DNA of 64,000 nucleotides from a virus. Of this stretch, positions 3 to 31,252 are shown one piece after another. How positions within the stretch are numbered: the first letter of the stretch is position 1; the number at the start of each line of letters is the position of its first letter. Made by a program: the position numbers and the translations under genes. Under the pieces are notes generated by a model, which was not told the DNA's origin, ran no database searches, and was given only the letters and a program-made list of their open reading frames with translations. Where the stretch lies: the IMG/VR virus record IMGVR_UViG_3300045988_149572, one strand, 5' to 3'.

Positions 3-3000
3 GCGGAACTCGACGCACAGAAAGCAGACGAGGAGGCGCGCCTTGAAGCGGAAAGAAAAGCAGAGGAGGAAGCGGTGGAGAAAGACGCGGAACTGAAAGA
101 GGATAAGAAAAAACCGCAATTGAAGGATGTGGTTAAAGCAATTTATGAGAAGGGAAAGTCGGCCGCTTCCAGATTATACAAAATGGCATTCTTCGATGTC
201 GCCAAGACACCTGACTTTATGAAGAAACTTGGGTTGACTGGAGACCGCTTCACAATCAAGTATGGGGTATTGTCGCGCCACGCAGGGAAAGATGATTCCC
301 ATTCGCTTACAGAGAAGCAGTGGGAGGAATTGCCTGATGCTTTGCAGAAGCCTTTTGCTATAACAAGATTCGGAGGAAAGGACAAAGGCTATCGTCTGTA
401 CACTACAATGAAGAACGAAAATGGCGAGACCATAGTCGTCGGTGTAGATGTGAAGAACGTAGGTCGTGATATGGAGGTGAATGCCATATCAACGATATTC
501 GGAAGGCGAGGTGACGCTAAAAAGACACAGAAAGAGGATGTGCTATATACCGCTGAAAACATTACTCCCGAACAGCGGTCACTTCTCGGTCAGCCCAATT
601 CTGACCAATATACCGGCGTTCGGGAGAGAAACGTTTCCACCGACAAAGGTAGCGAAAAGGCAGAGAAGAAGCAAAAGAAGCAGAGCGTTTTTGACAAGGC
701 TAAGGAGATTGCCGACAAGGAGGAGAAGAAACGCAAGGCTGAGGACAACTCGGTGCTCGGTCAAGCGACAAGAGCCGTGGGCAAGAAAAAGAAGGTCAAC
801 CTGTTCAAATATACGGCTTCAGAAAAAAACAGCAATTCTGCGCTGAGAGGAGTGCATTATGCCAACGGCTATGCGTATGCTTCTGATGGATACATCCTCT
901 TCAAGGAGAAAGCGGACTATCCCAAAGAGTGGGAAGGTACGACCAGAGACAAGGACGGCAATCTGATTGACGGGAAATATCCGGACGCGGAAAAGGCAAT
1001 ACCCAGATTGGTTCACATCCCCGACAAGGAGGTTGAGTCGTTGCCGTCAAAGGAGGTGCTTGACTTCGCCATCGCTGCAAGCAAGAAGTTGAAAGGAGAG
1101 GCAATACCTGTCGCAATTGACGGATTGTTCTTTAATGCAGTCAATCTGAAGAAGTTTCTTGAAGCGGTTGCATCCAAAGGAATGGACAAGGTTGTATACA
1201 GGCATCCTATGTTGTATGCCACCAACGGCAAGGATGAGATTGTAATGATGCCTACAGTGAATACATTGGAGGGCGCATTGGATATTGCCGACAGGATGGA
1301 AAGCGCAGGTTTGCCCAAAGAGCAGATTGATGCGTGGAAGGCACACATTGAAGCCGCTGATAAGAAAATGTCGTTTGAGGACTTCAAAAAAGCCGTTGAA
1401 AACGCCAAGAAGGAAGGTGTCAGACCTACGGAAGCTGACAAGCAGGAGAGTAAGGCGGAGGCTGAGAAGCAGAAAGTTGACAAGCAGGGGAATCCAATTG
1501 ACGCTGAAGGCAGACTGATAACTGAGAAAGTTGAAGACATCAGCGATTTGTCGGACGATGATTTCAACAATCCGAAACGTTCTGTGGAATTGCCTAAGAT
1601 ACCGAAGAATATAGATAACGCTCTCGGTGCGAACGGCAAGCCTGTTATTATCAAGAAGAATATATTCGAACGGAACAAGAACGCTCATTCAGACTTAACG
1701 GCAGAGCAGAGCCGAGAAATACTTAAAACAGCGCTGTACTCGGCTGATTTGTATGCTAAGAACCAAAAATCCAAGCGCCCGTTCAATTGGGTAATTATCA
1801 AAACAAAAGACCACGATGGTAAAAACAAACTTGTTCTCTTGGAAGTTAACGACAACAAGGACAATGTGGAAATTGTGCATTGGCACTATCTTGATGACCG
1901 AGGCCTTGAAAAAATAAAAAAGCAAGCCGAACGTGAGGGCGGGCAACTCCTCATACTGCCTTCCGAAAAAGAAGAGGCTGGCGCCCTTTCCAGCCGTACA
2001 TCCGACTTGCCTGCTGACAAAGGTAGCGAAGTCGGAGGAGAAAAGCAAGAGGCTGAGAAAAAAAGACCCGCTCCGCTATCGGAGCGGATAGAAGATGTCG
2101 GAGAGAAGATTGGCGATGCGAGGAAGGATGTCTGGAAGGAAATAATTGCCAGGATCAAGAATAAAAAACAAGGGATTGAAGAAGCGTTGAAGAAGAGCTC
2201 TGCGGGCAAGCTGTTCTCTTCGTTGTTTGACGAGAAGGAGTTGCTTGAAAGCGGTGTGTCGAATGAGGTTGTGACATTCATCTCAGCGGTAAAGGGCAGT
2301 CTTGGAACGAAACCGAGGTCTTTGTCCAAATTAAAGATGTGGATCAATAAAGTATTGCACCAATATGATATGTGCGAACAGGCATTGGAGAATTGGGAAT
2401 CCGTCAAGAAGAAGATTGACGAATGGAAGTACTATAGCCAACCGTTCTATATGTACCGCGCGGCAATGGCAGTCGGAGGATATGAAAGTGGACGTGATGT
2501 AGGCAACGCCGAATTGTGGCAGATTGCTGACGGGTATAGTGATGGAAAGTCCGTAGCCGGGCAATGGTGTGTCCGTAAAGCTGGAGCCTATGATGGAATT
2601 TATAAGACTTACGAGGAAGCAGCCGAGGCTCTGAAGAAATTCGCAGGAGAGAACGCTGCGGTTGACGGCAAAGGGAAACGCAAGGAAGTGAAACTTGCGA
2701 TATACAAAAGGCGGACGGACGGCACTATGTTCATAGCTCCAGAAGGAAAGCCGGATGTGATAATTCAGGATGGATTCAAGACTTTATACGAAGCATCTGC
2801 ATATAAGAAGGAGCATTATGCAGAGATGCAGGAGCGTTATCGGACGTTGATGGATGGCATCAAACCGAAATTCAACGAGAACAGGGAGCGCAAAGGGCGT
2901 GACTGGCGCGGCGGCAAGGATGTGTCGGCGGAGGATTTCCGGGAAGCGTTTGACTTCCGAGGAGTGGAGTTCGGCAACTGGATGCAGCAGAAGGACAGAC

Positions 3001-6000
3001 ACCAGGCGTTGAACGAATGCTACGACTCTCTTATGGACTTGGCGATGGTCTGTGGAGTGTCGCCGAAGGCGTTGTCGCTTGGAGGGAAGTTGGCAATGGC
3101 ATTCGGTGCGAGAGGAGGTGGAAAATTCAACGCTCATTACGAGCCGGATAAGGTTGTGATAAACCTTACAAAGACCAAAGGTGCAGGAAGCCTTGCGCAC
3201 GAATGGTTCCACGCCATTGACAATTATTTCAATATGCAAGGTTGGGACGAATTTGCCACAGAAAGCACGCGGAACGTTGAACGCAAGGAAATGGCTGAAG
3301 CGTGGAAGGATTTGGTGCGTGCGATAAACGGAAGTGATTATTTCAAGCGGTCAGACAAATACGCCCGTCTTAAAGGCTCCAGATATTGGATTGAACCGAC
3401 TGAGCTTGGAGCGAGAGCGTTTGCGGTGTGGGTTGAGAACAGACTGTCGAAGTACGGCACGATAAACGACTATCTCGCCAACAATCCACGTCTAGTGGAT
3501 GAGAAGGCAAGCGACGCAGAAAAGAAATATGCACCGTACCCATTCGACAAGGACGCTGACTGGATGGACGAGAAATTCGGCAGGTTGTTCGAGGTGATGC
3601 AGGAGCGTGTCGACGAGGAGACAGGTAAGCACATTCTGTACAGCAGAAATAAAGCTGCCGGGCACGAGAAGACGGAGTTGACAGCGGAGGAGCGGGAACT
3701 GAGGGACAACCTTGTGGAGCGTATGCGCAAGGGTGGACTTGACGTGGTGACTGATTCGGAAGAGATGCAAAGAGTCATAGACACCGAGAACGAGCGGACA
3801 AGGATGATGGGTGCCGGTTCAGTCCGTGAGCATCGTGTGTACCACGGCAGCGGAGCGGACTTCGATGCTTTCGACCACTCGCATATGGGCGAGGGAGAAG
3901 GTGCGCAGGCTTACGGCTGGGGTACTTATGTGACCGAGGTGGAAGGCATCGGCAGGACGTATGCTATTCAGAATACAACGAAGCACAACGATGCTTTACG
4001 TGCATTGCAACACGATGTAGATGCTATATCTGACCAACTTAACAGACACCGGGATGATTTGAAGTATGACGAAGAGCAGTTAAAACGTGCTAACGAATGG
4101 AGAGCCGAGGCAGAGCTTGACTATGAATTGTTCAAAGATGAAGCTGAGGAATTAAAGGAAAAATATGGAGAGTCTTCTCCTAAATACCGAAATCATCTGT
4201 TTAATGACATCTATACAGATGAAATGAAACGTGCTCAAAGTTCAGTTAAGAGTATGGAAGAGTCAATCCAGTATCGCAAGGAGAAAATCGCAGAGCTGGA
4301 AAAGGCATTAAAGGATAAGCAAGCGGAGATTGATGAACTGCCGAAGGAGTTTCCACGCCACCTTTACACTGTAGAAATCCCCGATGACAACGGCAGCAAC
4401 TATCTGGATTGGAATGGCCACCCTGCTGAATCTTTACTGAAAGATGTAGGTTCGTTTTTGGAGAGTGAAGGCTTTGAGAGGGTACAGGATAACCCTGTCA
4501 GATATGAGAAAGGCGAAAGCACCGTTGTTTTGAACCCAAATGCGACTGGAGCTGATTTGTATGCGGAATTGCGTGAGGTTCTTGGCAGCGACAAGAAAGC
4601 GTCACAAGCATTGGCAGAGTTAGGCTGTATTGGCATCAAATATCCTGCTGACAATATGCGTGGTGGCCGTGAGGATGGCGCAAAGAACTACGTTATCTTC
4701 AACGAGAATGATGCGAAGATAACCGACCATACACGCTTTCTGCGTACTGCGGACGGAGAGGTGTACGGCTTGGTGAAGGACGGACGCATATACCTTGACC
4801 CAAAGGTGGCTACAGCGGAGACTGCGGTACACGAATACACGCATCTGTGGGGCGATATGCTGAGGCGCAAGGACTCCGAGCAATGGAGCCACACGGTGAA
4901 GGAACTGAAGAACAGCGTTCTTTGGGAGGAAGTGAAGGAGTTGTATCCGGAGCTGAAGACCGATGACGAGATAGCGGACGAAGTGTTGTCGACGTTCAGC
5001 GGACGCAGAGGAGCGGAACGCTTGCGCGAGGAGGCACGCAGGGTTGCCGATGGCGAGGGCGGAGTGTTCACAAAGGCGAAGGCTATCGAGACGTTGGAGC
5101 GAGTGAAGGAAGCCATAGCGCGGTTCTGGGAAGGCGTGGCGAGGATGTTCGGCATCAACCGCTACCGCAGTGCCGAGGAGTTGGCTGATATGGCAATGAA
5201 GGACTTGCTTGATGGTGTAGACCCAAGAAAGATGGGTAACAACGAGAAAGGCATTGGATTCAGTGCAAAACAAAAAAGAGCACTTGAAACCGTAACGATG
5301 GCAGACAAATCCACCAATAAAGCCACTGCCATTTCAAGTGCTGATGGCGCAAAGGTACAAAATAATCTTGAAATACTTGCTGAAAGCTACAACAATCGTT
5401 CCAATAAAACCAAAGGGTTCATAACGGACTTGTCTCAAGCTCTAAACTTGGAGCGACATGAAGCAAGTCATTATGGTACATTTGAGACGCAGAAAGGTAA
5501 GTTGGTTACTATCCGTGTGAGCAATCACAATGCACGTGTTTCATTATTTGACAAGAATGGCGAGAATGATGGCATTAGTATTGTTATATCAAATCATAAG
5601 AACAAGGGACTTTTGAACGATGGCAATGCCCATATTATAGAATTCTTCTACTCCAAACAATCACTTCAAAGAGCCGATGGTAAACCATTGTCGGATATAA
5701 TCCGTTCTGTTTCCGAAGTTTTGTATAGTGGTGAGTTTAAGGACACGACAGGTCTTGCTGAGCGGCAGGAGGTGAACGGTGATGATGTGATTCGCTTCCA
5801 GTTCATCGGTGAGAAGGGTGCTGCGGAAGCCGACCATGCCGAGGAGGTTTTTGCAAACGAAAATGTAGAGCGCAGTGTAAGAGAGAATCCTAAAAGCGAG
5901 GAGCCACGCTTCAGCAGAAAGCCGGGCGAGAGCATCTTCGACTATGCGTCACGTGTGTCGGAAGACGGCTTGCTATTCCGAGATGGTGGTACTGAGTACG

Positions 6001-9000
6001 ATTTCCCAGGCGAAGACGACGCTCAGAAACTTTACAACGCTGCGGTTGACGGCAGAAAGTCGAGGGCAATAGAATCGTGGCAGGATGAGATGTTCCCCGT
6101 GAAGATGCTCCAAGAGGCGATTGAGAAAGCCACGGGCGAGAAGATAGCCGACTTCGAGAACGCATATCTGTTAGAGAATCAACTCGGCTCGGCAGGAAAC
6201 GCAACGTTGGAGAAGTATGCGAGAGAGGTTCAGAATCCAATGCGCAAGGTGTATCTTGACATGCTCAAAGCCAAGTTTGATGGAGGGAGCAAAGTTACAA
6301 AGTCGGACATCAACAAGTATGTGATAGCGGTTCACGGATTGGAACGCAATAAGTATATGGCGGATAAGAACAAGGGGTTGCCCGATGCTCGCAGGGACTA
6401 TTCCGGTTTTACCGCATTGTTCGGCAATGGAGAGCAAGTAGAGGTTGAAGAACTTGAACGTAGAGCGGAAGAATATATCGGGAAGTTTGAGGATGCAGTG
6501 GGTAAAGACAAAGCGGATAAGCTATGGTCGCTTGTGGATGAATCAAGACAACGCACGTTGGACGAACTTGTGAGGTCAGGCTTGGTAAGCGGCGATGTCG
6601 CAGATGAATGGTTGCGTCGCTTCGAGCACTATGTCCCGTTGCAAGGCTTCTCAGAGGAGGTTATAGGAGAGGACAGAAACGCTAATTTCGAAAACCACAT
6701 CACGGGGCGTATGTCCGAGGCAAGAGACCCTTTGGCAACACTCGTGAATATGGAGTATGTTGCTGTAACGAGCGGCAATCACAACAGAGTGAAACAGGCT
6801 CTTTACAACCTTGCGCTCAACCATAGAACAAACCTTCTCTCTGTAATGCCGATGTTCTCTGTAAAGAATCCAATTACTGGTGAATGGGAGGATGCGGTTC
6901 CGCAGATTGATGAAACGATGTCACCGATTGAGAGACAACGGGAGGTTGATAAGTTTATCAAGCAGATGCGCGTACGTATGCGCGAGGAGAAAGACCTTCC
7001 AGAATCGGACAAAACTGTCAAGGATGCAAGAAAGGTAAGCGTTGGTAGTAAAGTATTGCCTAAAGCTATGCCAGACTTTATTGTGAGGATGAAAGTCAAC
7101 GGCAGACAATATGCGGTTGTCCTCAATGGCAATCCAAGAGCTGCGCAGGCTATAAATGGACGGTTGAAGGAACACCCCAACAAGGCATTGCAGAAGATAA
7201 GCGGAGTGACGAGGTTTATGTCAGCTGCGGTTACTGCTTGGAATGCTGCGTTTATGTTAAGCAACTTTGCAAGGGATGTGCAAGCGGCGAACGCTTTTGC
7301 TTATTCCAACGAGGGAGCAAAATATGCGGCTATGATGGATGCTGAAATCCATAAAAATATGTCGTTGACTTCATTGGGCAGAGATTTGTTTGGGATGAAA
7401 AATAAAGGTATTTATAAGTTATATTATAAATACAGACACAATCAGCTTGACATGAGTAATGAACGGGAAAGATTCTTCAAAGAGTTTGTTGACAATGGAG
7501 GTGAGACCGGGTACACACAGATGGTTGACATTGATAAAATCGCCAAACAGATGCAGAAAGATGAATTTTCTGCAATCAAAGCGATTAAATCGGTCGGCAA
7601 GTTCATTGAATTGGCAAACAAGGGCTTTGAGAACGCGACACGTTTCGCAGCGTATGCAACAAGCCGAAAAATGGGTAAGTCTGTTATGCAGAGCATTAAC
7701 GACGCAAAAGAGATAAGCGTCAATTTCAACAGACACGGAAATGGGCGGAACGGATATGTCATCGCCAAATCGTTGTATCAATTCTTGAATCCTACAATAC
7801 AAGGATTGGAGAAACAATTGCGTACAATAAAAGAACACCCATTAGAGGGCACAGCCGTGTTAATTGCGACACCGATTGCAATAGGATTTGCCATCCCGCT
7901 TGTAAATATCGGATTGGCTATGTTGTCGGGCGGAGGTGACGATGACAAAAAATACTATTGGTCACTTAGCGATTGGACACGCAGAAACAATCTCATTATT
8001 GGTGTGAATGGTAAATTTATAAAAATTCCGTTGCCACCAGAGTTGAGGGTGTTTTATGGAATTGGAGAGATGATTGCGTCGAAGATGAGCAACCCATATG
8101 ACAAGACGAATCTTTTGACTGAAATCCCGAAGCATATCAGTGAAACATTGCCGTTCAATGACACAAACAGTACATTTCCATCGTTTGTTAAACCATTTAT
8201 TGAATCAGAGGTTACAGACAAGGATTTTATGGGCAGAAAGATTACTGGGCGTTCTGACTATAACACCCAAGACCCGGAATGGAAACGGGCGGGCTACAAC
8301 ACAGACGATGAGTATATAGCCGCCGCCAAATGGTGGCACAGCCTGTTTACCGACAACGACAATGAGAGAGGCTCGTGGTTTGCGGAAATCAACCCATCAG
8401 TAGCAGAACATCTTATCAAGGGTTATACAGGAGGAATTGGAAGTATAGTAGGACAAGTGTACACAACGGTAAAGGCAATAGCCAAAGGCAATGAAAAAGA
8501 TTATTCTGATTCAAGAAATTGGCCTATTGTCAACAGAGTTTATGTCCAGACCACCAAAGAAGATGCAGTGAAAAAAACTACAAATACCGCTTATCGTTTC
8601 TATCAAGACAATTACAAAAACTATGAGCATACGTTTAAAGAAACTCTTAAAGATGAAAAATCCGGTATATTCCAAAAGGCTCAAAGAATTTCAAATATGG
8701 TTGAGACTTCGGAATACAAGCGGTACAGAATGACAGAGCCATTTATAAAAGCAGACAAACTTCTTTGGGATGAAATAAAGGCACTCAAAGAGACAGATGA
8801 CAAAGAATCGCTTGAGTGGATTGAAAAAGAACAGACTCGGCTTAGGAGTGTTCTTGTAGAAGCCTCTGAAAAATTTGATATTTATGACAACGCAGGACTT
8901 ACGTACAAACTGGACAGAATGTCAAAGCCAGGTGCTTATAAATCGGATTTGAAGATTGATGTAAAATCAGCACCAAATAAGGATATGCGTAAATTCGCAA

Positions 9001-9089
9001 AAGAGTACAATGTCAAGATCGGCAAATACAAACAACAAACCTATAAAGATGAACAAGAAATAAAGAAACATATTCGTGTTAATAAATAA
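3..9089 (+). CDS. giant polyvalent MuF-like virion protein, C-terminal 3029 codons (5' end runs off the window)
   Basis: Frame 3 is open from base 3; the ORF track starts at GTG 75 only because it needs a start codon. Zincin motifs HEWFH (3198-3212) and HEYTH (4830-4844). Two barnase/EndoU/RelE-like (MuF-C type) segments (~240-510, ~1680-2000). DnaN-motif-like segment (~830-1280). Hydrophobic stretch 7843-7935. Lies directly upstream of portal. Confidence 0.8.
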   Translation, partial: AELDAQKADEEARLEAERKAEEEAVEKDAELKEDKKKPQLKDVVKAIYEKGKSAASRLYKMAFFDVAKTPDFMKKLGLTGDRFTIKYGVLSRHAGKDDSHSLTEKQWEELPDALQKPFAITRFGGKDKGYRLYTTMKNENGETIVVGVDVKNVGRDMEVNAISTIFGRRGDAKKTQKEDVLYTAENITPEQRSLLGQPNSDQYTGVRERNVSTDKGSEKAEKKQKKQSVFDKAKEIADKEEKKRKAEDNSVLGQATRAVGKKKKVNLFKYTASEKNSNSALRGVHYANGYAYASDGYILFKEKADYPKEWEGTTRDKDGNLIDGKYPDAEKAIPRLVHIPDKEVESLPSKEVLDFAIAASKKLKGEAIPVAIDGLFFNAVNLKKFLEAVASKGMDKVVYRHPMLYATNGKDEIVMMPTVNTLEGALDIADRMESAGLPKEQIDAWKAHIEAADKKMSFEDFKKAVENAKKEGVRPTEADKQESKAEAEKQKVDKQGNPIDAEGRLITEKVEDISDLSDDDFNNPKRSVELPKIPKNIDNALGANGKPVIIKKNIFERNKNAHSDLTAEQSREILKTALYSADLYAKNQKSKRPFNWVIIKTKDHDGKNKLVLLEVNDNKDNVEIVHWHYLDDRGLEKIKKQAEREGGQLLILPSEKEEAGALSSRTSDLPADKGSEVGGEKQEAEKKRPAPLSERIEDVGEKIGDARKDVWKEIIARIKNKKQGIEEALKKSSAGKLFSSLFDEKELLESGVSNEVVTFISAVKGSLGTKPRSLSKLKMWINKVLHQYDMCEQALENWESVKKKIDEWKYYSQPFYMYRAAMAVGGYESGRDVGNAELWQIADGYSDGKSVAGQWCVRKAGAYDGIYKTYEEAAEALKKFAGENAAVDGKGKRKEVKLAIYKRRTDGTMFIAPEGKPDVIIQDGFKTLYEASAYKKEHYAEMQERYRTLMDGIKPKFNENRERKGRDWRGGKDVSAEDFREAFDFRGVEFGNWMQQKDRHQALNECYDSLMDLAMVCGVSPKALSLGGKLAMAFGARGGGKFNAHYEPDKVVINLTKTKGAGSLAHEWFHAIDNYFNMQGWDEFATESTRNVERKEMAEAWKDLVRAINGSDYFKRSDKYARLKGSRYWIEPTELGARAFAVWVENRLSKYGTINDYLANNPRLVDEKASDAEKKYAPYPFDKDADWMDEKFGRLFEVMQERVDEETGKHILYSRNKAAGHEKTELTAEERELRDNLVERMRKGGLDVVTDSEEMQRVIDTENERTRMMGAGSVREHRVYHGSGADFDAFDHSHMGEGEGAQAYGWGTYVTEVEGIGRTYAIQNTTKHNDALRALQHDVDAISDQLNRHRDDLKYDEEQLKRANEWRAEAELDYELFKDEAEELKEKYGESSPKYRNHLFNDIYTDEMKRAQSSVKSMEESIQYRKEKIAELEKALKDKQAEIDELPKEFPRHLYTVEIPDDNGSNYLDWNGHPAESLLKDVGSFLESEGFERVQDNPVRYEKGESTVVLNPNATGADLYAELREVLGSDKKASQALAELGCIGIKYPADNMRGGREDGAKNYVIFNENDAKITDHTRFLRTADGEVYGLVKDGRIYLDPKVATAETAVHEYTHLWGDMLRRKDSEQWSHTVKELKNSVLWEEVKELYPELKTDDEIADEVLSTFSGRRGAERLREEARRVADGEGGVFTKAKAIETLERVKEAIARFWEGVARMFGINRYRSAEELADMAMKDLLDGVDPRKMGNNEKGIGFSAKQKRALETVTMADKSTNKATAISSADGAKVQNNLEILAESYNNRSNKTKGFITDLSQALNLERHEASHYGTFETQKGKLVTIRVSNHNARVSLFDKNGENDGISIVISNHKNKGLLNDGNAHIIEFFYSKQSLQRADGKPLSDIIRSVSEVLYSGEFKDTTGLAERQEVNGDDVIRFQFIGEKGAAEADHAEEVFANENVERSVRENPKSEEPRFSRKPGESIFDYASRVSEDGLLFRDGGTEYDFPGEDDAQKLYNAAVDGRKSRAIESWQDEMFPVKMLQEAIEKATGEKIADFENAYLLENQLGSAGNATLEKYAREVQNPMRKVYLDMLKAKFDGGSKVTKSDINKYVIAVHGLERNKYMADKNKGLPDARRDYSGFTALFGNGEQVEVEELERRAEEYIGKFEDAVGKDKADKLWSLVDESRQRTLDELVRSGLVSGDVADEWLRRFEHYVPLQGFSEEVIGEDRNANFENHITGRMSEARDPLATLVNMEYVAVTSGNHNRVKQALYNLALNHRTNLLSVMPMFSVKNPITGEWEDAVPQIDETMSPIERQREVDKFIKQMRVRMREEKDLPESDKTVKDARKVSVGSKVLPKAMPDFIVRMKVNGRQYAVVLNGNPRAAQAINGRLKEHPNKALQKISGVTRFMSAAVTAWNAAFMLSNFARDVQAANAFAYSNEGAKYAAMMDAEIHKNMSLTSLGRDLFGMKNKGIYKLYYKYRHNQLDMSNERERFFKEFVDNGGETGYTQMVDIDKIAKQMQKDEFSAIKAIKSVGKFIELANKGFENATRFAAYATSRKMGKSVMQSINDAKEISVNFNRHGNGRNGYVIAKSLYQFLNPTIQGLEKQLRTIKEHPLEGTAVLIATPIAIGFAIPLVNIGLAMLSGGGDDDKKYYWSLSDWTRRNNLIIGVNGKFIKIPLPPELRVFYGIGEMIASKMSNPYDKTNLLTEIPKHISETLPFNDTNSTFPSFVKPFIESEVTDKDFMGRKITGRSDYNTQDPEWKRAGYNTDDEYIAAAKWWHSLFTDNDNERGSWFAEINPSVAEHLIKGYTGGIGSIVGQVYTTVKAIAKGNEKDYSDSRNWPIVNRVYVQTTKEDAVKKTTNTAYRFYQDNYKNYEHTFKETLKDEKSGIFQKAQRISNMVETSEYKRYRMTEPFIKADKLLWDEIKALKETDDKESLEWIEKEQTRLRSVLVEASEKFDIYDNAGLTYKLDRMSKPGAYKSDLKIDVKSAPNKDMRKFAKEYNVKIGKYKQQTYKDEQEIKKHIRVNK

Positions 9090-23775: not shown

Positions 23776-24264
23776 ATGACAGGAACGGCAGTTAATAATA
23801 GCCTACGCATAGGCACGGCAAGTATGGGAGTGTTCATAGGCGAAATCAGCACACTGCTCTGGGATATGCGGTGGCTGATGCTCCTCGCTGGAGTGTTGAT
23901 TATTGTAGACTTGTGGCTCGGTGTTCACAAGTCTATCTCCAACAACGTTGACATCCGAGCGAGCCGCGCTCTACGGAGAACAATGATGAAAATAGCCGAC
24001 TATTTGTGCGTCGTGATACTCGGGGCGGTGGTCGGCAAGGCACTCGGAGAACCGCTCGGATGCTCCGCTATCGTAATCGCCGTGGTGCTTATGTCGATAG
24101 CGTGTTTGTGCGAACTCGACAGCATCATCAGCAACTGGGGCGAAATTAAAGGAGTGAAGATAAACGTCTTCAAAATAGTTCTCGGTCTTGTAGGCTACAA
24201 GCGCAAGGAACTTGGAGAAGCACTGAAAGGAACAATTACAATCACTAAAAAACGGAAGAAATGA
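23776..24264 (+). CDS. holin
   Basis: 162 aa with about 3 TM segments. DLWLGV...SRALRRTMMK...ELDSIISNWGEI resembles the phage_holin_4 signature (E..SI.EN). Overlaps the endolysin start. Confidence 0.75.
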   Translation: MTGTAVNNSLRIGTASMGVFIGEISTLLWDMRWLMLLAGVLIIVDLWLGVHKSISNNVDIRASRALRRTMMKIADYLCVVILGAVVGKALGEPLGCSAIVIAVVLMSIACLCELDSIISNWGEIKGVKINVFKIVLGLVGYKRKELGEALKGTITITKKRKK

Positions 24265-24668
24265 AATACTTTACGTTGAACGAACTGACACGGAGCGACA
24301 CCGCCACAAAGAATAAGATAGACAACACACCGACAGCGGAAGCAGTGAAGAACTTGACTGTCCTTGTAGACAAGGTTCTCGACCCGTTGCGTGAGATGTA
24401 CGGCAAGCCGATATACATCTCCAGCGGCTACCGCTGTCCACGGCTGAACAAGGCTGTCGGAGGTGTCGCTGGCTCACAGCACAAGACAGGACAGGCAGCC
24501 GACATCAATCAGCGAAGCCGCGAGGAGAACGCGCGTGTCTTTAAACTGATTGAGGAGAACCTTGACTTCGACCAACTGCTGTGGGAAAACGGCGGTCAGT
24601 GGGTACACGTCAGTTATCGTGCTGACGGCAAGAACAGAAGGCAAGTGAAACGACTTTGGAAGAAATGA
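24261..24668 (+). CDS. endolysin, peptidase M15 (zinc D-Ala-D-Ala carboxypeptidase-like)
   Basis: SGYRCPRLNKAVGGVAGSQHKTGQAAD plus WVHVSY match the H-D-H metal-ligand pattern of the Peptidase_M15_3/M15_4 families. Confidence 0.85.
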   Translation: MKYFTLNELTRSDTATKNKIDNTPTAEAVKNLTVLVDKVLDPLREMYGKPIYISSGYRCPRLNKAVGGVAGSQHKTGQAADINQRSREENARVFKLIEENLDFDQLLWENGGQWVHVSYRADGKNRRQVKRLWKK

Positions 24669-24770
24669 TTTATTAACCAGACAATGGAACGCGCTCTTTG
24701 ACATACGGAATCACCGAAAAAAACTACAAAATTTTAGCGGAATTATATACAATATTTCGATAAAATTATA

Positions 24771-24778
24771 TATCTTTG
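24771..24778 (+). promoter_or_regulatory. Bacteroides-type -7 box TATCTTTG
   Basis: Matches the TAnnTTTG consensus in an AT-rich spacer 76 nt upstream of ATG 24854. Followed by a 12-bp-stem hairpin (AAAGTCCCATAT/ATATGAGACTTT). Confidence 0.4.
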
Positions 24779-24853
24779 CATAGAAAAGTCCCATATCGGC
24801 TAAATATGAGACTTTTATAAATTCGGCACACCGCCAAATAAAATTTTAATCTT

Positions 24854-25456
24854 ATGCAAGATATGATAAATTTATCGAAACGGCAAGCATTCTCGAAAGA
24901 GGATGCAGTTGAACTGCTTAGGCAGAATGCAGTACAGATATTCAGCGCCTTTGATGAAGCGTTGGACAAGTACAATGTAGAAATTCAACAGACAAGTCCA
25001 CTTGCTCGGACACGGTTGGATTCGCCACTGTTACACGCGAAAATTACAGACAGCTTCATTGCTACATTCCCAGAGAATACTATTATCGGCAAATACCGCA
25101 GAATCATTTTCCGCTATGTTGGTAATGGTAATAAATGCCAGCTTATAATCAAGAAGCTAAGCAAATCGAGCCGACCATCATATATAAGCACTCGACTGAG
25201 CAACACTATATTGTCACAAGGTCAATGCGAGTTGTTTGATGGAGAAGAGAGCGCCAAGCGAGAACCTTTATTGATTTTTGGCTATACAAAAGACAGGTTC
25301 GGTAATTTGACAAATCCGAGAATCGTCTATTTTGACGAAGAGCCAGTTTGGGAAATTGTTCCATCGGACTTTGCCTCTGCATTGCCGAATATGGACAGTG
25401 TAGAACATATCGAAGTAAAGCCAAAAAGGAAACAAAGAGAGAAGAAAGCAGAATGA
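24854..25456 (+). CDS. hypothetical protein, partner of the HTH-ImmA/IrrE gene
   Basis: 200-aa ORF with its own promoter-like box. No motif recognised. Confidence 0.6.
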   Translation: MQDMINLSKRQAFSKEDAVELLRQNAVQIFSAFDEALDKYNVEIQQTSPLARTRLDSPLLHAKITDSFIATFPENTIIGKYRRIIFRYVGNGNKCQLIIKKLSKSSRPSYISTRLSNTILSQGQCELFDGEESAKREPLLIFGYTKDRFGNLTNPRIVYFDEEPVWEIVPSDFASALPNMDSVEHIEVKPKRKQREKKAE

Positions 25457-25501
25457 CAATAACTGGTGGTGTGCCGTTTTGTTTATCAAACCGATTTAGT
25501 T

Positions 25502-26581
25502 ATGGAAAATAAGCAATTGACATTCGCAAGGGAATACAGAGGATTGTCGCAGACAGAATTGGCAAAGCGAGTTGCTGGCTTATCGCAATCCAACCTTTCA
25601 AAGTTTGAAAAATTAGGAGGTTCTTTGTCAGAAACCGCATTGCGCAATGCAATGAAGGCTCTTGAATTTCCTTTCGAGTTTCTCAATATAGAAATCAACA
25701 ACAATCCCGAGAGCAAACACTACCGCAAGAAAAATCAGATTGGAGAGAAGGACAAGACAAAAATAGATAGGTTTGTATCGACTGCGGCTTATGTGTTCGA
25801 CAACATTCTTGATGAGTTTGAAGCTCCTCCTTTTAATTTTCATTACCTTGATGTGGAGAATGGAATAAGCCCGGAGGAGGCTGCAAGACAGACACGCAGA
25901 ACGTGCCGAATTGGATGTGGCGCAATCCGTAACATCTGCAATCTTCTGGAACGCAATGGTGTGTTTGTGTATTTTTGGGATTGCGAGTATAAGGATTTTG
26001 ACGGGGTGTCGCTTGTCTCCGACAAGGGGAACCATATTGTTGTCGTCAACAAGAATATGCCGAACGACCGCATCCGCTTTTCTCTTGCCCACGAGCTTGG
26101 ACATTTGATAATGCACAACAGTATGTTCATCGTCCTTGAGGCGAGGGATAAGGAAAAAGAAGCCAATCAATTTGCGGCGGAATTTTTGATGCCAGAGAGG
26201 GAGATAGGTAGTGCTCTTCTGAACTTGAAACCATCGGCATTGCCCCTGCTGAAGCGAATGTGGCTGACATCAATGTCGTCTTTGGTTGTGCGTGCGAAAA
26301 CTCTCGGGAAAATAGACAGCAACAGATACAAAATGCTTATGACAGAATTGAGTCGTAAAGGATGGCGCACAAACGAGCCTATACAGGTGGAGCTTGACAG
26401 CCCGACATATTTGGCGGATGCGGAAAATATGTTGCAGGATGAATTCAATTTGGACTATACAGAGCAAGCAAGGATGATGTCCTTGCCAGTAGATATACTC
26501 AGACTGATTTTTCAAGGAAAAGCGATGACAAAGATGTTGAAACCGTTGCTTCTGATAAATCAGCAACCGAACACTCCATAA
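25502..26581 (+). CDS. XRE-HTH / ImmA-IrrE (COG2856) metallopeptidase fusion protein
   Basis: N-terminal LTFAREYRGLSQTELAKRVAGLSQSNLSKFE is an XRE HTH. HELGHLIMH is an HEXXH site and EANQFAAEFLMP is the ImmA/IrrE downstream motif. ATG 25502 is preferred over the upstream GTG. Confidence 0.85.
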   Translation: MENKQLTFAREYRGLSQTELAKRVAGLSQSNLSKFEKLGGSLSETALRNAMKALEFPFEFLNIEINNNPESKHYRKKNQIGEKDKTKIDRFVSTAAYVFDNILDEFEAPPFNFHYLDVENGISPEEAARQTRRTCRIGCGAIRNICNLLERNGVFVYFWDCEYKDFDGVSLVSDKGNHIVVVNKNMPNDRIRFSLAHELGHLIMHNSMFIVLEARDKEKEANQFAAEFLMPEREIGSALLNLKPSALPLLKRMWLTSMSSLVVRAKTLGKIDSNRYKMLMTELSRKGWRTNEPIQVELDSPTYLADAENMLQDEFNLDYTEQARMMSLPVDILRLIFQGKAMTKMLKPLLLINQQPNTP

Positions 26582-26662
26582 TGGAGATGTGCTTAAAAAC
26601 GCTGGGGCGGTGATTCCGAATGTCGGAGTCGCCGCTCCTTTTGTCATAAACGTTTTTGAGAT

Positions 26663-27091
26663 ATGAGAGATGACGAGAAATGCAGATATGTCTGCGTGGT
26701 GATAGGCTGGGTGCTGATTGCCGTGCTTGCGGTGATGTGCCTCGGATGCAAGTCGGTGCAGTATGTACCTGTGGAGTCTGTGCGCACCGATACGTGCTAC
26801 GTGAACAAGATTCGCACCGATTCCGTGTATGTGCGCGACTCGGTGGTCGTGGAGCGCAGCGGTGACACAATCAAGGTGACTGCGTGGCGGTGGCGCGAGC
26901 GGTACGTTGTGCAGCGCGACACCATCTATCGGAGCAAGACGGACAGCATTGCCGTACCTTACCCCGTGGAGCGCAAACTCTCTCGATGGGAAAAGACGAA
27001 GCAGGACATCGGCGGCATAGCCATCGGTGCGTTCATCGCCGTTGTGTCGGCGGTCGTGATTTGGTTGGCGGTGAAGAAGATGCGGAAATAG
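26663..27091 (+). CDS. membrane-anchored lipoprotein-like protein, candidate unimolecular spanin
   Basis: 142 aa. N-terminal signal ends in CLGC (lipobox-like, not canonical). C-terminal TM segment IGGIAIGAFIAVVSAVVIWLAV. Beta-rich middle. Lies downstream of the lysis genes. Confidence 0.4.
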   Translation: MRDDEKCRYVCVVIGWVLIAVLAVMCLGCKSVQYVPVESVRTDTCYVNKIRTDSVYVRDSVVVERSGDTIKVTAWRWRERYVVQRDTIYRSKTDSIAVPYPVERKLSRWEKTKQDIGGIAIGAFIAVVSAVVIWLAVKKMRK

Positions 27092-29757: not shown

Positions 29758-31008
29758 TCAGTCAAGCAAGTCCACAAGCTCCTTCTTGATGTCGTCGTCG
29801 ATGTTGCGGTAACGGGAGAAAGCCTTGCTTCCATCCTTGTGACCGGACATAGAGCCGACAAGATTGGGGTCTTTGACCTGTTTGTAAAGGTTGCCTATGA
29901 ACGTCCTGCGTGCAAGATGGGAGGAGGCTATCTCGTTGATTGGTCTGCGCACCTCGCATCCTTTGGAAGAATCATAGACAAGCACCGACCTCGTTATGCC
30001 ACAGATGGTGAAGAACCGCTTTATGGCTGCGTTATATGCTTGGTCTGCGATGAAAGGGAACAGCCTGCCGTCCTTGTCCACTCCCATATATTTCTTCACA
30101 AGCATCCGCGCGCTGTTGTTCAGCGGCACTCTGACGATGTCGGTATGTTCGCTTCGTGTCTTCCGGGGAATATACTCCACGGCTCCGTTCACAATATTGT
30201 CGGTGGTCAGCCTTGTGAGGTCGGACACACGGCAACCGATGCAGCACTGGAACAGGAAAATATCTCTCTGTACCTCAAGGGAAGGGTAGTCGGACAAGTC
30301 GTAGTTGGCTATGCGGTTGCGTTCCGCTATGCTTATATAATAAGGTGTGCCGTATCTTTCCGCTTTCACCGACACGTTGTCGGTCGGAGAGCGGTCGATG
30401 ATTCCAAGCGTCACCATCTCCTTGAACAAAGAGCGCAGACGTTTGAATGTAGTGCATATATAGTTTGCTCCGCCAATCTTCTCCACATCCTTGATGTAAG
30501 ACAGGAATTTCCTCACGTCATCCTCCGTCATCGTTTTCAAAGTAAGACTGTATGAAGGGGAGTATTTACGTCTGAACACCTCGAAACTTTTCAGTTTGTT
30601 CTTCAGCACCTCATATCCTCGCAACGTTCCCAAAGCGATGTTCTTGTGGGCGAGCAGGTCGGCAAATTCCTCATCGAGAGCCATCGGCTCTTCCTTGTCC
30701 TCCGGATTAAGAACGTCCTCCACCATTCTCTGCAAGTCACGGCTTGTGCGTATGTCCGCATAGTGGGAGGAGTAGACACGCATAATGATGTCCTTGAGAT
30801 AAGCCACCTTGTTGTCCACATCTTCCCTATACGCAATCTGGCACATCGCACGCTGTTTGATGCATTCTTTTTTGGAATCCCATAGAGAAGGGTACACCAT
30901 AATGTGGCTGATGAAGTATAACTGCACCTTGCGTCCGTCACTCAGACGGAAGCGTATTTTGACCTCGGAATCTTTGGTCGTTCGGATGAATGCTTTGATT
31001 GTTGCCAT
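29758..31008 (-). CDS. int: tyrosine recombinase / phage integrase
   Basis: Catalytic Arg context CCIGCRVSDL, SSHLARRTF (HxxR), and GHKDGSKAFSRY (His and Tyr). The MATIKAFIRT...IRFRL N-terminus is typical of Bacteroidales Arm-binding integrases, so ATG 31008 is preferred over 31053. Confidence 0.9.
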   Translation of the reverse strand: MATIKAFIRTTKDSEVKIRFRLSDGRKVQLYFISHIMVYPSLWDSKKECIKQRAMCQIAYREDVDNKVAYLKDIIMRVYSSHYADIRTSRDLQRMVEDVLNPEDKEEPMALDEEFADLLAHKNIALGTLRGYEVLKNKLKSFEVFRRKYSPSYSLTLKTMTEDDVRKFLSYIKDVEKIGGANYICTTFKRLRSLFKEMVTLGIIDRSPTDNVSVKAERYGTPYYISIAERNRIANYDLSDYPSLEVQRDIFLFQCCIGCRVSDLTRLTTDNIVNGAVEYIPRKTRSEHTDIVRVPLNNSARMLVKKYMGVDKDGRLFPFIADQAYNAAIKRFFTICGITRSVLVYDSSKGCEVRRPINEIASSHLARRTFIGNLYKQVKDPNLVGSMSGHKDGSKAFSRYRNIDDDIKKELVDLLD

Positions 31009-31025
31009 ACGCAAAGGTATGAAAC

Positions 31026-31252
31026 TTGCACAACACTTGCACAACATTTGCACAACATATTTGTTATCGGTTGTGATTATTTAATACTATCTGTACAATC
31101 AAACATTTCAAAATGCTGATTATCAAGTGATATGAAAACAAACCAAGTGAACGGCTAACAAACAACGTTGTCCGGGTAAGACAACAAGGGTAGTCTGACT
31201 ATCAGAAAGTTATGGTGGATGTGCGGTGGATTTGCACAACATTTGCACAACA
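31026..31252 (+). promoter_or_regulatory. attP-like region flanked by TTGCACAACA arm-type repeats
   Basis: Five same-orientation copies at 11-bp phasing: 31026, 31037 and 31048, then 31232 and 31243. They bracket ~175 bp of AT-rich non-coding DNA next to int. Confidence 0.55.

What the first reader, a model, noticed from the sequence alone, without database searches (positions are those of the whole stretch)
24670..26650. Promoter-equipped two-gene insert (unknown 200-aa protein plus HTH-ImmA/IrrE metallopeptidase) after the endolysin
An AT-rich spacer follows the holin/endolysin pair. It carries its own TATCTTTG -7 box (24771-24778) and a 12-bp-stem leader hairpin.

Downstream are an unrecognisable 200-aa ORF (24854-25456) and a 360-aa XRE-HTH/COG2856 fusion with intact HELGH and EANQFAAEFLMP motifs. 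A candidate terminator lies at about 26604-26644. The lipoprotein/TM protein that could complete the lysis cassette follows at 26663.

Fused or adjacent Xre-COG2856 genes are an established partner of diverse toxin or effector genes in TA-like and abortive-infection loci. ImmA-type proteases also act as stress-triggered switches. The pair therefore looks like a moron, meaning an independently transcribed accessory insert. It may encode a defence, superinfection-exclusion or TA system with a novel effector.
Basis: partly seen in the sequence, partly recalled or inferred. Interest (0 to 1): 0.65.

Follow-up and report, generated by a model that had tools for sequence, protein, structure and literature searches.

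The report
Toxin-antitoxin insert in gut phage
A temperate gut Bacteroidota phage carries a removable two-gene insert in its lysis genes, pairing an uncharacterised 200-aa protein with a known type of antitoxin, and it most likely acts as a toxin-antitoxin or phage-defence module of the known RosmerTA kind.

Summary

- **Insert.** Window 24670-26662 (1,993 bp) is a true insertion. Five sibling phages join the endolysin stop and the next gene's ATG as TGATATG. Six carry a 221-bp scar that deletes exactly both genes. Two carry other toxin-antitoxin pairs (HicA plus partner; HigB-like plus HTH-peptidase) between the same flanks.
- **geneB (359 aa).** It is a full-length RmrA-type antitoxin (PADLOC 4e-56) with an invariant HExxH...E motif.
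- **geneA (200 aa).** It has no family, defence-model or structural match. Its roughly 100-cluster family is followed by an RmrA-type gene in every context checked, down to about 20% identity, in both phage and chromosomal settings. It is probably remotely related to a protein upstream of an RmrA gene in Acinetobacter phage ABMM1.
- **New regulatory features.** The promoter region is more conserved than the proteins. A 5' hairpin and a 9-15-bp long-range helix enclosing the geneA reading frame keep their pairing while their sequences change.

Verdict: a RosmerTA-like mobile insert with a new toxin family. Toxicity, defence and the toxin's target are all untested.

The parts
24670..26662 (+). 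Whole insert (1,993 bp), absent from empty-site sibling phages. The trinucleotide GAT occurs both just before it and as its last three bases.
   Evidence: Empty sites read ...AAATGAT|ATGAGAG in L043, L053, L055, L060 and L063. The filled site reads ...AAATGAT[TTATT...GAGAT]ATGAGAG. GC is 0.34-0.41 at the 5' end against about 0.50 in the flanks.
24670..24716 (+). Left conserved flank, shared by all cargo types in this phage lineage. It contains the left arm of an imperfect inverted repeat (24683-24716).
   Evidence: The same sequence (2 variable positions) precedes the HicA cassette (L050), the HigB-like cassette (L061), the scars and the window's cargo. Inverted repeat I1 is 34 nt and 74% complementary with 26608-26641. 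A 17-nt core is perfectly complementary in L050 and L061.
24721..24778 (+). Conserved promoter and candidate operator region. It holds about 23-nt direct-repeat units (ATACAAWATTT...AATTAT) and ends in the -7 box TATCTTTG (24771-24778).
   Evidence: The region is nearly identical across modules whose proteins are only about 20-50% identical: window, L064, L001, L006, L066, L067, L068, L069. A -7 box is found in 11 of 12 loci. Promoter and operator function are inferred.
24786..24818 (+). Hairpin 1. It starts a few nt after the -7 box, so it probably sits at the 5' end of the transcript.
   Evidence: It has 12 pairs and folds at -9.5 kcal/mol. Equivalent hairpins of 8-12 bp with a 6-7-nt loop and different arm sequences occur in L001, L006, L064, L066, L067, L068, L069, L074 and L075. 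For the seven that were folded, z ranges from -1.3 to -4.5.
24824..24836 (+). 5' strand of the long-range helix (CGGCACACCGCCA), at -30 to -18 relative to the geneA ATG.
   Evidence: It pairs with 25464-25476 (I12, 85-88). The helix is in the minimum-energy fold of the 748-nt transcript model with pair probability about 1.0.
24854..25456 (+). geneA: a 200-aa soluble, mildly basic protein of an unannotated family. It is the predicted toxin or effector.
   Evidence: No hit in Pfam, PHROGs, PADLOC, NCBIfam or PDB sequences. AF2 pLDDT is 82 for the full protein and 87 for the domain, with no Foldseek match at TM >= 0.5. It is always followed by an RmrA-type gene. No transmembrane segment; pI 8.8.
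25464..25476 (+). 3' strand of the long-range helix (TGGTGGTGTGCCG), at +8 to +20 after the geneA stop codon. It is followed by TTTTGTTT and lies 25 nt before the geneB ATG.
   Evidence: The same arrangement, with different sequences, is found in 11 of 11 family loci that have a spacer between the two genes.
25502..26581 (+). geneB: a 359-aa Xre-type HTH (about aa 5-60) fused to an M78/ImmA-IrrE zinc peptidase (aa 152-248), plus a conserved C-terminal domain. It is RmrA-type and the predicted antitoxin and regulator.
   Evidence: PADLOC RmrA 4e-56 over the full length, capP 8.7e-19. phrog_2439 6e-75. Pfam M78 1.8e-15. NCBIfam spr1629 antitoxin 1.3e-29, below its cut-off. H197, E198, H201, H205, E218 and E220 are invariant across 10 partner proteins.
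26570..26662 (+). Right conserved flank, shared by all cargo types. It contains the intrinsic-terminator-like hairpin 26604-26638 plus its T-run, and the right arm of the inverted repeat.
   Evidence: An exact 29-mer from this flank is found only in 17 IMG/VR contigs, all of this phage lineage.
24261..24668 (+). Context: the M15_3 endolysin immediately upstream of the insertion point.
   Evidence: Pfam Peptidase_M15_3 5.8e-21; phrog_894 endolysin 7.7e-41.
26663..27091 (+). Context: a 142-aa gene with an N-terminal hydrophobic/Cys segment and a hydrophobic stretch near the C-terminus (spanin-like; inferred). In empty-site phages it starts 4 bp after the endolysin stop codon.
   Evidence: No family hit was found.

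Best explanation
**What it is.** The insert is a self-contained two-gene toxin-antitoxin or abortive-infection module of the RosmerTA type. A temperate Bacteroidota phage carries it as an independently transcribed accessory insert between its endolysin gene and a spanin-like gene.

**How it most likely works (all steps inferred unless stated).**
- A Bacteroidota-type promoter (-7 box at 24771-24778) transcribes geneA then geneB in the lysogen.
- The transcript ends at the hairpin at 26604-26638.
- geneB is an RmrA-type protein. Its Xre HTH most likely binds the highly conserved repeat region over the promoter and autoregulates the operon.
- The geneB protein, with an intact ImmA/IrrE-type zinc-peptidase site, keeps the geneA product inactive.
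- geneA is the effector, a soluble and mildly basic protein from a new family. When a trigger such as infection by another phage, or loss of the prophage, removes or overwhelms geneB control, geneA arrests or kills the cell.

**RNA layer.** Expression of the toxin-first operon is additionally shaped at the RNA level. There is a 5'-terminal hairpin. There is also a covarying long-range helix that pairs the leader (24824-24836) with the stretch just after the geneA stop codon (25464-25476). This helix probably ties antitoxin expression to toxin translation, or marks the transcript for processing.

**Shown versus inferred.** Shown here: insert polymorphism, family membership of geneB, strict pairing and co-divergence of the two genes, and conservation of the regulatory elements. 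Inferred: toxicity, neutralisation, trigger, target and the role of the RNA helix.
For: **1. geneB is an RmrA-type protein.**
- It matches 14 PADLOC RmrA models over its full length; the best is 4e-56.
- The catalytic HExxH...E motif is invariant in all partner proteins.
- A control RosmerTA pair in Clostridium phage phiCT9441A is recognised by the same library: RmrT 1.8e-77 and RmrA 3.6e-179.

**2. RosmerTA is defined as diverse toxins paired with this antitoxin.**
- It is often toxin-first (58%) and is known from phages. The Gordonia phage Kita system defends against phages (PMC10440598; bioRxiv 10.1101/2022.05.11.491447).
- RipAB of S. pneumoniae is toxin-first with an XRE-ImmA antitoxin (PMC12795458).

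**3. Strict synteny.** Every geneA relative examined is followed on the same strand by a 347-359-aa (HTH+)M78 gene. Eight further sub-families were checked, down to about 20% identity.
- Phage contexts: L001-L010 and L068.
- Chromosomal contexts: L072 and L074.
- Identities of the two genes fall together: 100/100, 90/83, 52/53 and 49/49%.

**4. The same site holds other toxin-antitoxin pairs.** In sibling phages the same flanks hold a HicA toxin (Pfam 3.8e-13) plus partner, or a HigB-like toxin plus an HTH-M78 protein.

**5. Both genes are lost together.** Six contigs share one scar that removes 24777-26551 at a CTT microhomology and keeps the last 30 nt of geneB. geneA alone was never seen.

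**6. Independent expression signals travel with the module.** These are the promoter region, the hairpin and the terminator.

**7. The long-range helix is well supported.**
- Duplex energy is -30 to -37 kcal/mol, and 0 of 300 shuffles reach it in 8 loci.
- The core helices hold 129 Watson-Crick, 4 G-U and 1 A-C pairs, with different sequences between loci.
- The helix has pair probability about 1.0 in the full-transcript fold.
- It is absent from four control cassettes.
Against: - No experiment bears on toxicity, neutralisation or defence.
- geneA matches none of PADLOC's RmrT models, neither as the window protein nor in 57 family members. PADLOC's models would therefore not recognise the pair.
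- geneB's score against the RmrA models (about 188 bits) is moderate. Its NCBIfam spr1629 match is far below the cut-off (103 bits against 335).
- geneA has no recognisable catalytic motif. Its family-wide invariant residues are only K100 and P108, with R83, K101, T113, Q122, P138, G143 and Y144 nearly invariant.
- PHROGs labels the geneB family only as 'transcriptional regulator'.
- The -7 box is not statistically distinctive by itself.
- The long-range complementarity could in principle be a DNA-level inverted repeat. Mismatch types (4 G-U against 1 A-C) do not settle this.
Confidence: 0.65

Rival explanations
1. **Stress-triggered transcriptional switch rather than a protein-level antitoxin.** In this reading geneB acts like a fused CapH/CapP or ImmR/ImmA pair. 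The HTH represses the operon. On a signal such as DNA damage or infection, the peptidase cleaves the HTH. geneA is then simply over-expressed. geneB never neutralises the geneA protein directly.
For: - geneB matches PADLOC capP (8.7e-19) and capH (2.6e-4).
- The promoter-region repeats and the HTH recognition helix are both nearly invariant across the family, which points to tight DNA binding.
- Ernits et al. suggest an HTH-cleavage mode of regulation for Rosmer-like systems (PMC10440598).
Against: - In the characterised relatives, antitoxin supplied in trans from a separate promoter counteracts the toxin (RipB, PMC12795458; Kita RmrA, PMC10440598). This points to control beyond transcription.
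- geneA is upstream of geneB in one operon. Derepression would therefore raise both proteins.
- This rival is not exclusive of the best explanation.
Confidence: 0.2
2. **Addiction module only.** The pair is a genuine toxin-antitoxin pair, but its role is to stabilise the prophage or the cassette through post-segregational killing. It gives no protection against other phages.
For: - It sits in a temperate phage that has an integrase at 29758-31053.
- The alternative cargo at the site consists of classical type II pairs, HicA and HigB-like.
- In the scars, both genes are deleted together.
Against: - Tested RosmerTA systems defend against phages.
- The cassette has been lost or is absent in 11 of 23 sibling contigs, so it is not strongly 'addictive' at the population level.
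- The module also occurs at chromosomal sites outside prophages.
Confidence: 0.2
3. **Roles reversed.** The M78 peptidase (geneB) is the effector, acting like the Lit protease that cleaves a host protein. geneA is its inhibitor, sensor or specificity factor.
For: - geneB gives faint HExxH-region matches to Lit (PADLOC 0.045, NCBIfam 0.05).
- The catalytic site is invariant.
- geneA shows no obvious enzymatic motif.
Against: - In every characterised relative, the HTH-peptidase protein is the essential, neutralising partner. The rmrA deletion could not be transformed. RipB is essential only when RipA is present.
- The Lit matches are at chance level.
Confidence: 0.07
4. **Phage housekeeping function.** In this reading geneA is a lysis or structural accessory, and geneB is a lysis-timing or lysogeny regulator of this phage.
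For: - The insert sits inside the lysis cassette.
- PHROGs annotates the geneB family as 'transcriptional regulator'.
Against: - Near-identical phages lack both genes, with the endolysin and the next gene only 4 bp apart.
- Elsewhere the pair sits among early genes, next to a different endolysin family (Amidase_3), or in non-phage chromosomal contexts.
- geneA has no PHROG family and no relative in 50,697 deposited phage genomes.
Confidence: 0.04

Closest known systems
RosmerTA (RmrT/RmrA) anti-phage toxin-antitoxin systems (Millman et al. 2022; Ernits et al. 2023, including Gordonia phage Kita RmrTA)
   Same: It is a two-gene operon. The antitoxin is an Xre-HTH fused to an ImmA/IrrE zinc peptidase, and geneB matches the RmrA models over its full length. 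The toxin is upstream and comes from a family with no known function. It is carried by a phage.
   Different: geneA matches none of the RmrT models and has no transmembrane region, unlike the Kita RmrT-D5. The promoter repeats, the 5' hairpin and the long-range helix around the toxin reading frame were not found in the control RosmerTA pair that was examined. The host lineage is Bacteroidota. Function is untested.
RipAB (Spr1630/Spr1629) of Streptococcus pneumoniae, a Rosmer-family toxin-antitoxin pair whose toxin acts on the sliding clamp
   Same: It is toxin-first. The antitoxin combines an XRE HTH with an ImmA-like peptidase. geneB matches the NCBIfam spr1629 antitoxin model at 1.3e-29.
   Different: The match is far below the model's cut-off (103 bits against 335), so geneB is not an equivalog. 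No similarity between geneA and RipA could be tested, because the RipA sequence was not at hand.
ImmR/ImmA (ICEBs1), IrrE/DdrO and CapH/CapP protease-repressor switches
   Same: They use the same M78 peptidase fold with HExxH...E, partnered with an Xre-type HTH. They are stress- or infection-triggered regulators of mobile elements or defence operons.
   Different: Here the HTH and the peptidase are fused in one protein. The module is not next to the integrase or to a CBASS operon. It is dispensable to the phage.
Phage accessory-insert hot spots (HK97/lambda-type morons; P2/P4-type defence hot spots). Recalled from memory, not checked here.
   Same: Promoter-plus-terminator cassettes are present in some and absent in other near-identical phages. 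Alternative defence or toxin-antitoxin cargo is exchanged between conserved flanks.
   Different: This hot spot lies between the endolysin and a spanin-like gene of a Bacteroidota phage. Its flanks (47 and about 93 bp in the window, with an imperfect inverted repeat) are found only in this lineage.
hok/sok fold-back (fbi-tac) long-range pairing in type I toxin mRNAs. Recalled from memory, not checked here.
   Same: A long-range helix joins sequences upstream and downstream of a toxin reading frame, closing it into a loop.
   Different: That system is type I, with an antisense RNA antitoxin, and its helix blocks translation until the 3' end is processed. Here the system is protein-protein. The 3' strand lies between the toxin and antitoxin cistrons, and the role of the helix is unknown.

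Membership tests
RosmerTA | Antitoxin RmrA: an Xre-type HTH fused to an ImmA/IrrE (M78) zinc peptidase | tested here: met
   PADLOC RmrA 4e-56, covering residues 2-343 of 359. Pfam Peptidase_M78 is above its cut-off. HExxH and the downstream Glu residues are invariant.
RosmerTA | Two adjacent same-strand genes that form a conserved pair | tested here: met
   A 45-nt spacer separates the two genes. The pairing is kept in all sub-families and contexts examined.
RosmerTA | The toxin belongs to a recognised RmrT family (the operational criterion used by PADLOC) | tested here: not met
   No RmrT model is matched by geneA or by 57 family members. The control RmrT of phage phiCT9441A is detected at 1.8e-77. 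In the literature RmrT proteins are heterogeneous, so this fails the tool's criterion rather than the concept.
RosmerTA | The toxin is growth-inhibitory, the antitoxin neutralises it, and the pair lowers phage plating | not testable with these tools
   This needs expression and phage-challenge experiments.
Moron (independently transcribed accessory insert in a phage) | Present in some and absent in other closely related phages at the same site | tested here: met
   Of 23 sibling contigs, 8 carry the pair, 5 are empty with a 4-bp junction, 6 carry scars, 3 carry other cargo and 1 is cut off by the contig end.
Moron (independently transcribed accessory insert in a phage) | Own promoter and terminator, and a deviating base composition | tested here: inconclusive
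   There is a conserved -7 box and promoter region, a terminator-like hairpin and a GC dip. These are sequence-level matches only. No transcript data are available.
ImmR/ImmA-type element switch | Separate repressor and anti-repressor protease genes next to the integrase, controlling excision or induction | tested here: not met
   The HTH and the peptidase are fused. The module lies 3.2 kb from the integrase, inside the lysis cassette, and is dispensable in sibling phages.
CapH/CapP regulators | Adjacent to and controlling a CBASS or other defence operon | tested here: not met
   Only geneA is co-transcribed with geneB. No CBASS or other PADLOC model is hit in the pair.
Restriction-endonuclease-like / tRNA-splicing-endonuclease fold (for geneA) | Structural match with TM >= 0.5 and conserved catalytic residues | tested here: not met
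   The best Foldseek hit is 3ajv, at E 0.014 and TM 0.25 for the full model, and E 0.07 and TM 0.37 for the domain model. There is no conserved acidic PD-(D/E)xK triad.

The most novel reading that the evidence does not exclude
Two readings that the evidence does not exclude:
- geneA founds a previously unrecognised toxin superfamily with no solved structural neighbour. It has a Bacteroidota branch of about 100 clusters at 50% identity, plus a probable Acinetobacter and Acinetobacter-phage branch.
- The covarying long-range RNA helix that encloses the toxin reading frame, together with the 5'-terminal hairpin, is a new cis-regulatory device for toxin-first protein toxin-antitoxin or abortive-infection operons. 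It could make antitoxin synthesis depend on toxin translation, or direct excision or processing of the toxin cistron.
Probability: 0.3. Interest if true: 0.7.

Novelty: new variant of a known kind. Interest (0 to 1): 0.52.

Why it matters
**Natural controls for experiments.** The related phages differ at one site only: pair, scar, empty, HicA cassette or HigB-like cassette. If these phages can be isolated, this is an unusually clean system for asking what such cassettes do for a prophage and its host.

**An unrecognised branch of Rosmer-type systems.** Gut Bacteroidota phages are poorly characterised. geneA and 57 members of its family match none of the RmrT models in the PADLOC library (version 2.0.0 of 2023) searched here, so those models would not recognise the pair. 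This hints that Rosmer-type systems with unrecognised toxins are under-counted in this phylum.

**A new toxin family.** The toxin family has a confident predicted structure but no structural or sequence neighbour. Its target is an open and directly testable question.

**A tractable regulatory question.** How toxin-first operons avoid self-poisoning is a standing question. The conserved long-range helix around the toxin reading frame offers a concrete, mutable handle on it.

Tried and rejected
**Searches for a known relative of geneA (all negative).**
- Sequence libraries gave nothing for geneA or its family: Pfam, PHROGs, NCBIfam, PADLOC and PDB sequences. Lenient per-member scans of 57 relatives also gave nothing recurrent.
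- Foldseek on the full model against PDB and BFVD, and on a domain-only model against PDB, gave no match with E <= 0.001 or TM >= 0.5. A tRNA-splicing endonuclease (with EcoRV-type restriction endonucleases among the full-model hits) recurs as the best weak hit. I treat this as a lead only, because no acidic catalytic triad is conserved.
- phmmer of geneB against PDB sequences gave no hit at 0.01.

**Searches in public genome collections.**
- A megablast of the 8.6-kb region against deposited phage genomes gave no match. tblastn of geneA against them also gave no match.
With A1 it found only 4 loci.

**Attempts to score the RNA helices with the alignment tools.**
- MAFFT cannot register helices that keep pairing but not sequence. 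A6 acquired gaps. RNAalifold on A7 recovered only part of hairpin 1, plus an artefactual pairing between two conserved stretches.
- I therefore relied on RNAduplex with shuffles and on explicit pair counts.
- Rfam gave nothing above threshold. One sub-threshold 'COG2827 RNA' match over the terminator (E 0.27) was judged to be chance.

**Ideas considered and dropped.**
- *The flanks mark a widely mobile cassette.* Rejected: the right flank occurs only in this phage lineage.
- *Hairpin 1 is the HTH operator.* Judged less likely than the promoter repeats. The recognition helix is invariant, while the hairpin arms vary between loci.
- *The roughly 97-aa C-terminal-half 'proteins' in the family are natural split toxins.* The one locus inspected, L095, is a full-length gene broken by two compensating frameshifts at or beside runs of A. 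Sequencing error and real decay cannot be told apart.
Full report
**1.

The window is a temperate tailed-phage genome. It encodes a P22-like portal, an SU10-type capsid protein, a 3,004-aa polyvalent protein, a DnaB helicase and a tyrosine integrase at 29758-31053.

At the locus, a holin (23776-24264) and an M15_3 endolysin (24261-24668) are followed by a 185-bp AT-rich spacer. After the spacer come a 200-aa ORF (geneA, 24854-25456) and a 359-aa ORF (geneB, 25502-26581). A hairpin with a T-run follows at 26604-26638, and then a 142-aa gene at 26663 with hydrophobic stretches at both ends.

- TATCTTTG is at 24771-24778.
- HELGH is at 26090-26104.
- EANQFAAEFLMP is at 26159-26194.
- The 12-pair hairpin (24786-24818) folds at -9.5 kcal/mol, z = -2.2.

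Taken alone, the -7 box is not beyond chance (45 matches in the window against 36 +/- 6.5 expected), and the hairpin is marginal. What makes them credible is their conservation across diverged copies, described in section 5.

**2. It is an insertion, at a hot spot**

IMG/VR holds 23 contigs of the same phage lineage. Their holin and endolysin are 82-100% identical to the window's, and the downstream protein is 83-100% identical. The interval between the endolysin and the next gene varies as follows.

| Interval | Contigs | Content |
|---|---|---|
| 4 bp | 5 | Empty site, ...AAATGAT\|ATGAGAG |
| about 2,000 bp | 8 | geneA plus geneB |
| 221-222 bp | 6 | Deletion scar |
| 914 bp | 1 (L050) | HicA toxin (Pfam 3.8e-13) plus a 134-aa partner |
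| 1,640 bp | 1 (L061) | 108-aa HigB-like toxin (Pfam 4.6e-4, below cut-off) plus a 365-aa HTH-M78 protein, 21-33% identical to geneB (full-length alignment; best local match), best PADLOC match PD-Lambda-2_B |
| 366 bp | 1 (L051) | An unrelated small ORF |
| unknown | 1 | Cut off by the contig end |

The insert is therefore window 24670-26662.

All cargo types except the small ORF in L051 share two flanks. The left flank is 24670-24716. The right flank is about 26570-26662 and contains the terminator. The flanks carry an imperfect inverted repeat of 34 nt at 74% complementarity, with a 17-nt core that is perfect in L050 and L061. An exact 29-mer from the right flank occurs only in this lineage. 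The flanks are therefore local recombination handles rather than the ends of a widely mobile element.

The 221-bp forms are scars. They equal the window sequence with 24777-26551 removed at a CTT microhomology. They keep the last 30 nt of geneB and break the -7 box. GC falls to 0.34-0.41 over the 5' part of the insert, against about 0.50 on either side.

**3. geneB is an RmrA-type antitoxin**

geneB matches 14 PADLOC RmrA models over its full length (best 4e-56). It also matches phrog_2439 (6e-75), Pfam Peptidase_M78 (above its cut-off) and, far below its cut-off, the NCBIfam spr1629 antitoxin model.

Across ten partner proteins, H197, E198, H201, H205, E218 and E220 are invariant. The HTH segment LSQSNLSKFEKG is nearly so.

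The literature describes RosmerTA as follows:
- The antitoxin carries this zinc peptidase, and the toxins are diverse and of unknown function.
- The toxin comes first in 58% of cases.
- The rmrA deletion could not be transformed.
- The Gordonia phage Kita system defends E. coli against some phages.
- RipAB of S. pneumoniae is a further toxin-first member.

As a control, the same library recognises both genes of a RosmerTA pair in Clostridium phage phiCT9441A.

**4. geneA is a new family that never travels alone**

No library matches geneA or its relatives. A word-indexed search found 43 unnamed relatives. An exhaustive profile search found 101 clusters at 50% identity, most about 195-217 aa long. 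Only four loci appear among 185,579 species-representative genomes: Prevotella and Bacteroidaceae MAGs and two other bins. None appear among deposited phage genomes.

Every context examined has an (HTH+)M78 gene of 347-359 aa immediately downstream on the same strand:
- P0012 (L001-L005, among phage early genes);
- P0029 (L006-L010, after an Amidase_3 endolysin);
- P0104 (L068, beside terminase and portal genes);
- P0061, P0075 and P0134 (short contigs);
- P0139 and P0091 (L072 and L074, among ordinary chromosomal genes).

Identities of the two genes fall in step.

The family profile also aligns with the family of gp30 of Acinetobacter phage ABMM1 over 150 columns (hhalign probability 88.5%, E 2.7e-6). 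gp30 is a 209-aa protein that likewise overlaps the start of an RmrA-type gene. This is a probable remote relationship.

**AF2 models and residues.** The models are confident: pLDDT 82 for the full protein and 87 for residues 70-178. They show two long N-terminal helices, a mixed beta domain and a disordered Lys-rich tail. No solved or viral predicted structure matches at TM >= 0.5. The recurring weak top hit is a tRNA-splicing endonuclease.

The protein is soluble and mildly basic. Family-wide conserved residues are K100 and P108, with R83, K101, T113, Q122, P138, G143 and Y144 nearly invariant. This inventory is compatible with nucleic-acid binding or metal-independent cleavage. That is only a guess.

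**5. Regulatory anatomy: conserved DNA, covarying RNA**

*Promoter region.* The 58 nt ending in the -7 box are nearly identical among modules whose proteins are as little as about 20-50% identical. They consist of about 23-nt repeat units. Because the HTH recognition helix is also invariant, this region is the best candidate operator. This is inference.

*Hairpin 1.* Downstream, a hairpin of 8-12 bp begins 6-16 nt after the box in at least nine further loci, with different arm sequences. For the seven folded leaders (the window's and six others), z ranges from -1.3 to -4.5.

*Long-range helix.* This was unexpected. A segment just upstream of the geneA start (window 24824-24836) is the reverse complement of a segment 8-20 nt after the geneA stop (25464-25476). 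The same arrangement, with unrelated sequences, occurs in all 11 loci that have a spacer between the two genes.
- The ungapped helices are 9-15 bp, with 129 Watson-Crick, 4 G-U and 1 A-C pairs.
- The window compared with L064 shows G-U to A-U at one position and C-G to G-C at the next.
- RNAduplex gives -30 to -37 kcal/mol, with 0 of 300 dinucleotide shuffles as good, in eight loci. It is weaker in three.
- In a fold of the whole 748-nt transcript model, the helix is in the minimum-energy structure with pair probability about 1.0.
- Four control cassettes lack it: the phiCT9441A RosmerTA pair, ABMM1, the HigB-like cassette and the HicA cassette.
- The two family loci whose genes abut (L072, L073) also lack it.

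The 3' strand is usually followed by a T-rich run. A ribosome terminating on geneA would sit on part of the helix.

Plausible roles are:
- coupling antitoxin expression to toxin translation;
- conditional termination between the two cistrons;
- a double-strand processing site.

None of these was tested. A DNA-level inverted repeat is not excluded.

**6. Interpretation**

The simplest account is a RosmerTA-type toxin-antitoxin or abortive-infection module with a new toxin family. It is carried as an accessory insert and is exchangeable with other toxin-antitoxin cassettes at a lysis-cassette hot spot. I put about 0.65 on this.

The variants are listed as rivals: a purely transcriptional switch, addiction without defence, reversed roles, and phage housekeeping. 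The first two overlap with the main reading.

No paper held here links Rosmer systems with Bacteroides phages.

**7. Verdict**

The kind of system is known. The toxin family, the hot spot and the RNA architecture are new details. Interest is moderate, at 0.52.

Noticed in passing
L050:6933-7843 and L061:6888-8524 (same site as window 24670-26662): Sibling phages carry different toxin-antitoxin cargo between the same flanks. L050 has a HicA toxin plus a 134-aa partner. L061 has a HigB-like 108-aa protein plus a 365-aa HTH-M78 protein whose best PADLOC match is PD-Lambda-2_B. Each cassette has its own TAnnTTTG box.
   Followed up: partly
L041, L047, L048, L052, L058, L062 (221-222-bp interval); corresponds to window 24777-26551 deleted: Six contigs share one deletion scar that removes exactly geneA and geneB at a CTT microhomology. 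The scar keeps the last 30 nt of geneB and destroys the -7 box.
   Followed up: yes
window 24683-24716 and 26608-26641: The conserved flanks of the cassette form an imperfect inverted repeat (34 nt, 74% complementary). A 17-nt core, GACATTCGGAATCACCG / CGGTGATTCCGAATGTC, is perfect in L050 and L061. The right arm lies inside the terminator hairpin. Its meaning is unknown: a recombination handle, or a degenerate second copy of the terminator.
   Followed up: partly
window 24824-24836 with 25464-25476 (and the equivalent positions in L001, L006, L014, L064, L066, L067, L068, L069, L074, L075): A covarying long-range complementarity encloses the geneA reading frame. In L006, L066, L001, L067 and L075 the leader strand can alternatively form a small local hairpin, which suggests two mutually exclusive structures.
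   Followed up: partly
window 26604-26662: In cassette-bearing phages a strong terminator-like hairpin lies directly in front of the spanin-like gene. In empty-site phages that gene starts 4 bp after the endolysin stop. No TAnnTTTG box lies between the hairpin and the gene. Its expression would therefore need read-through or antitermination.
   Followed up: no
L051:6885-7250: One sibling phage has a 366-bp insert at the same junction that lacks the shared flanks. It encodes a small basic ORF that starts right after the endolysin stop.
   Followed up: no
L095:255-902: About a dozen 'proteins' of roughly 97 aa in the geneA family start at the conserved PMNIKT methionine. The one locus inspected is a full-length gene interrupted by two compensating frameshifts at or beside runs of A. 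Sequencing error and toxin decay cannot be told apart.
   Followed up: partly
L093:1845-3550 (Acinetobacter phage vB_AbaM_ABMM1 gp30-gp31): A cultured phage carries an RmrA-type gene (PADLOC 1.3e-56). It is preceded by an overlapping 209-aa hypothetical protein that matches no RmrT model but aligns with the geneA family profile (hhalign probability 88.5%). This is a possible experimentally tractable relative.
   Followed up: partly
window 75-9089: A 3,004-aa polyvalent protein carries MuF_C, LPD13, LPD5, LPD1 and LPD38 domains and a weak ART-PolyVal (ADP-ribosyltransferase) domain. It lies upstream of the portal gene.
   Followed up: no
window 25454-25456 and family C-termini (alignments A1, A2, A5): geneA-family proteins end in a disordered Lys/Arg-rich tail that often finishes with ...KKAE. 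The Acinetobacter branch has a similar basic tail. It could be a binding or degradation tag. This was not examined.
   Followed up: no
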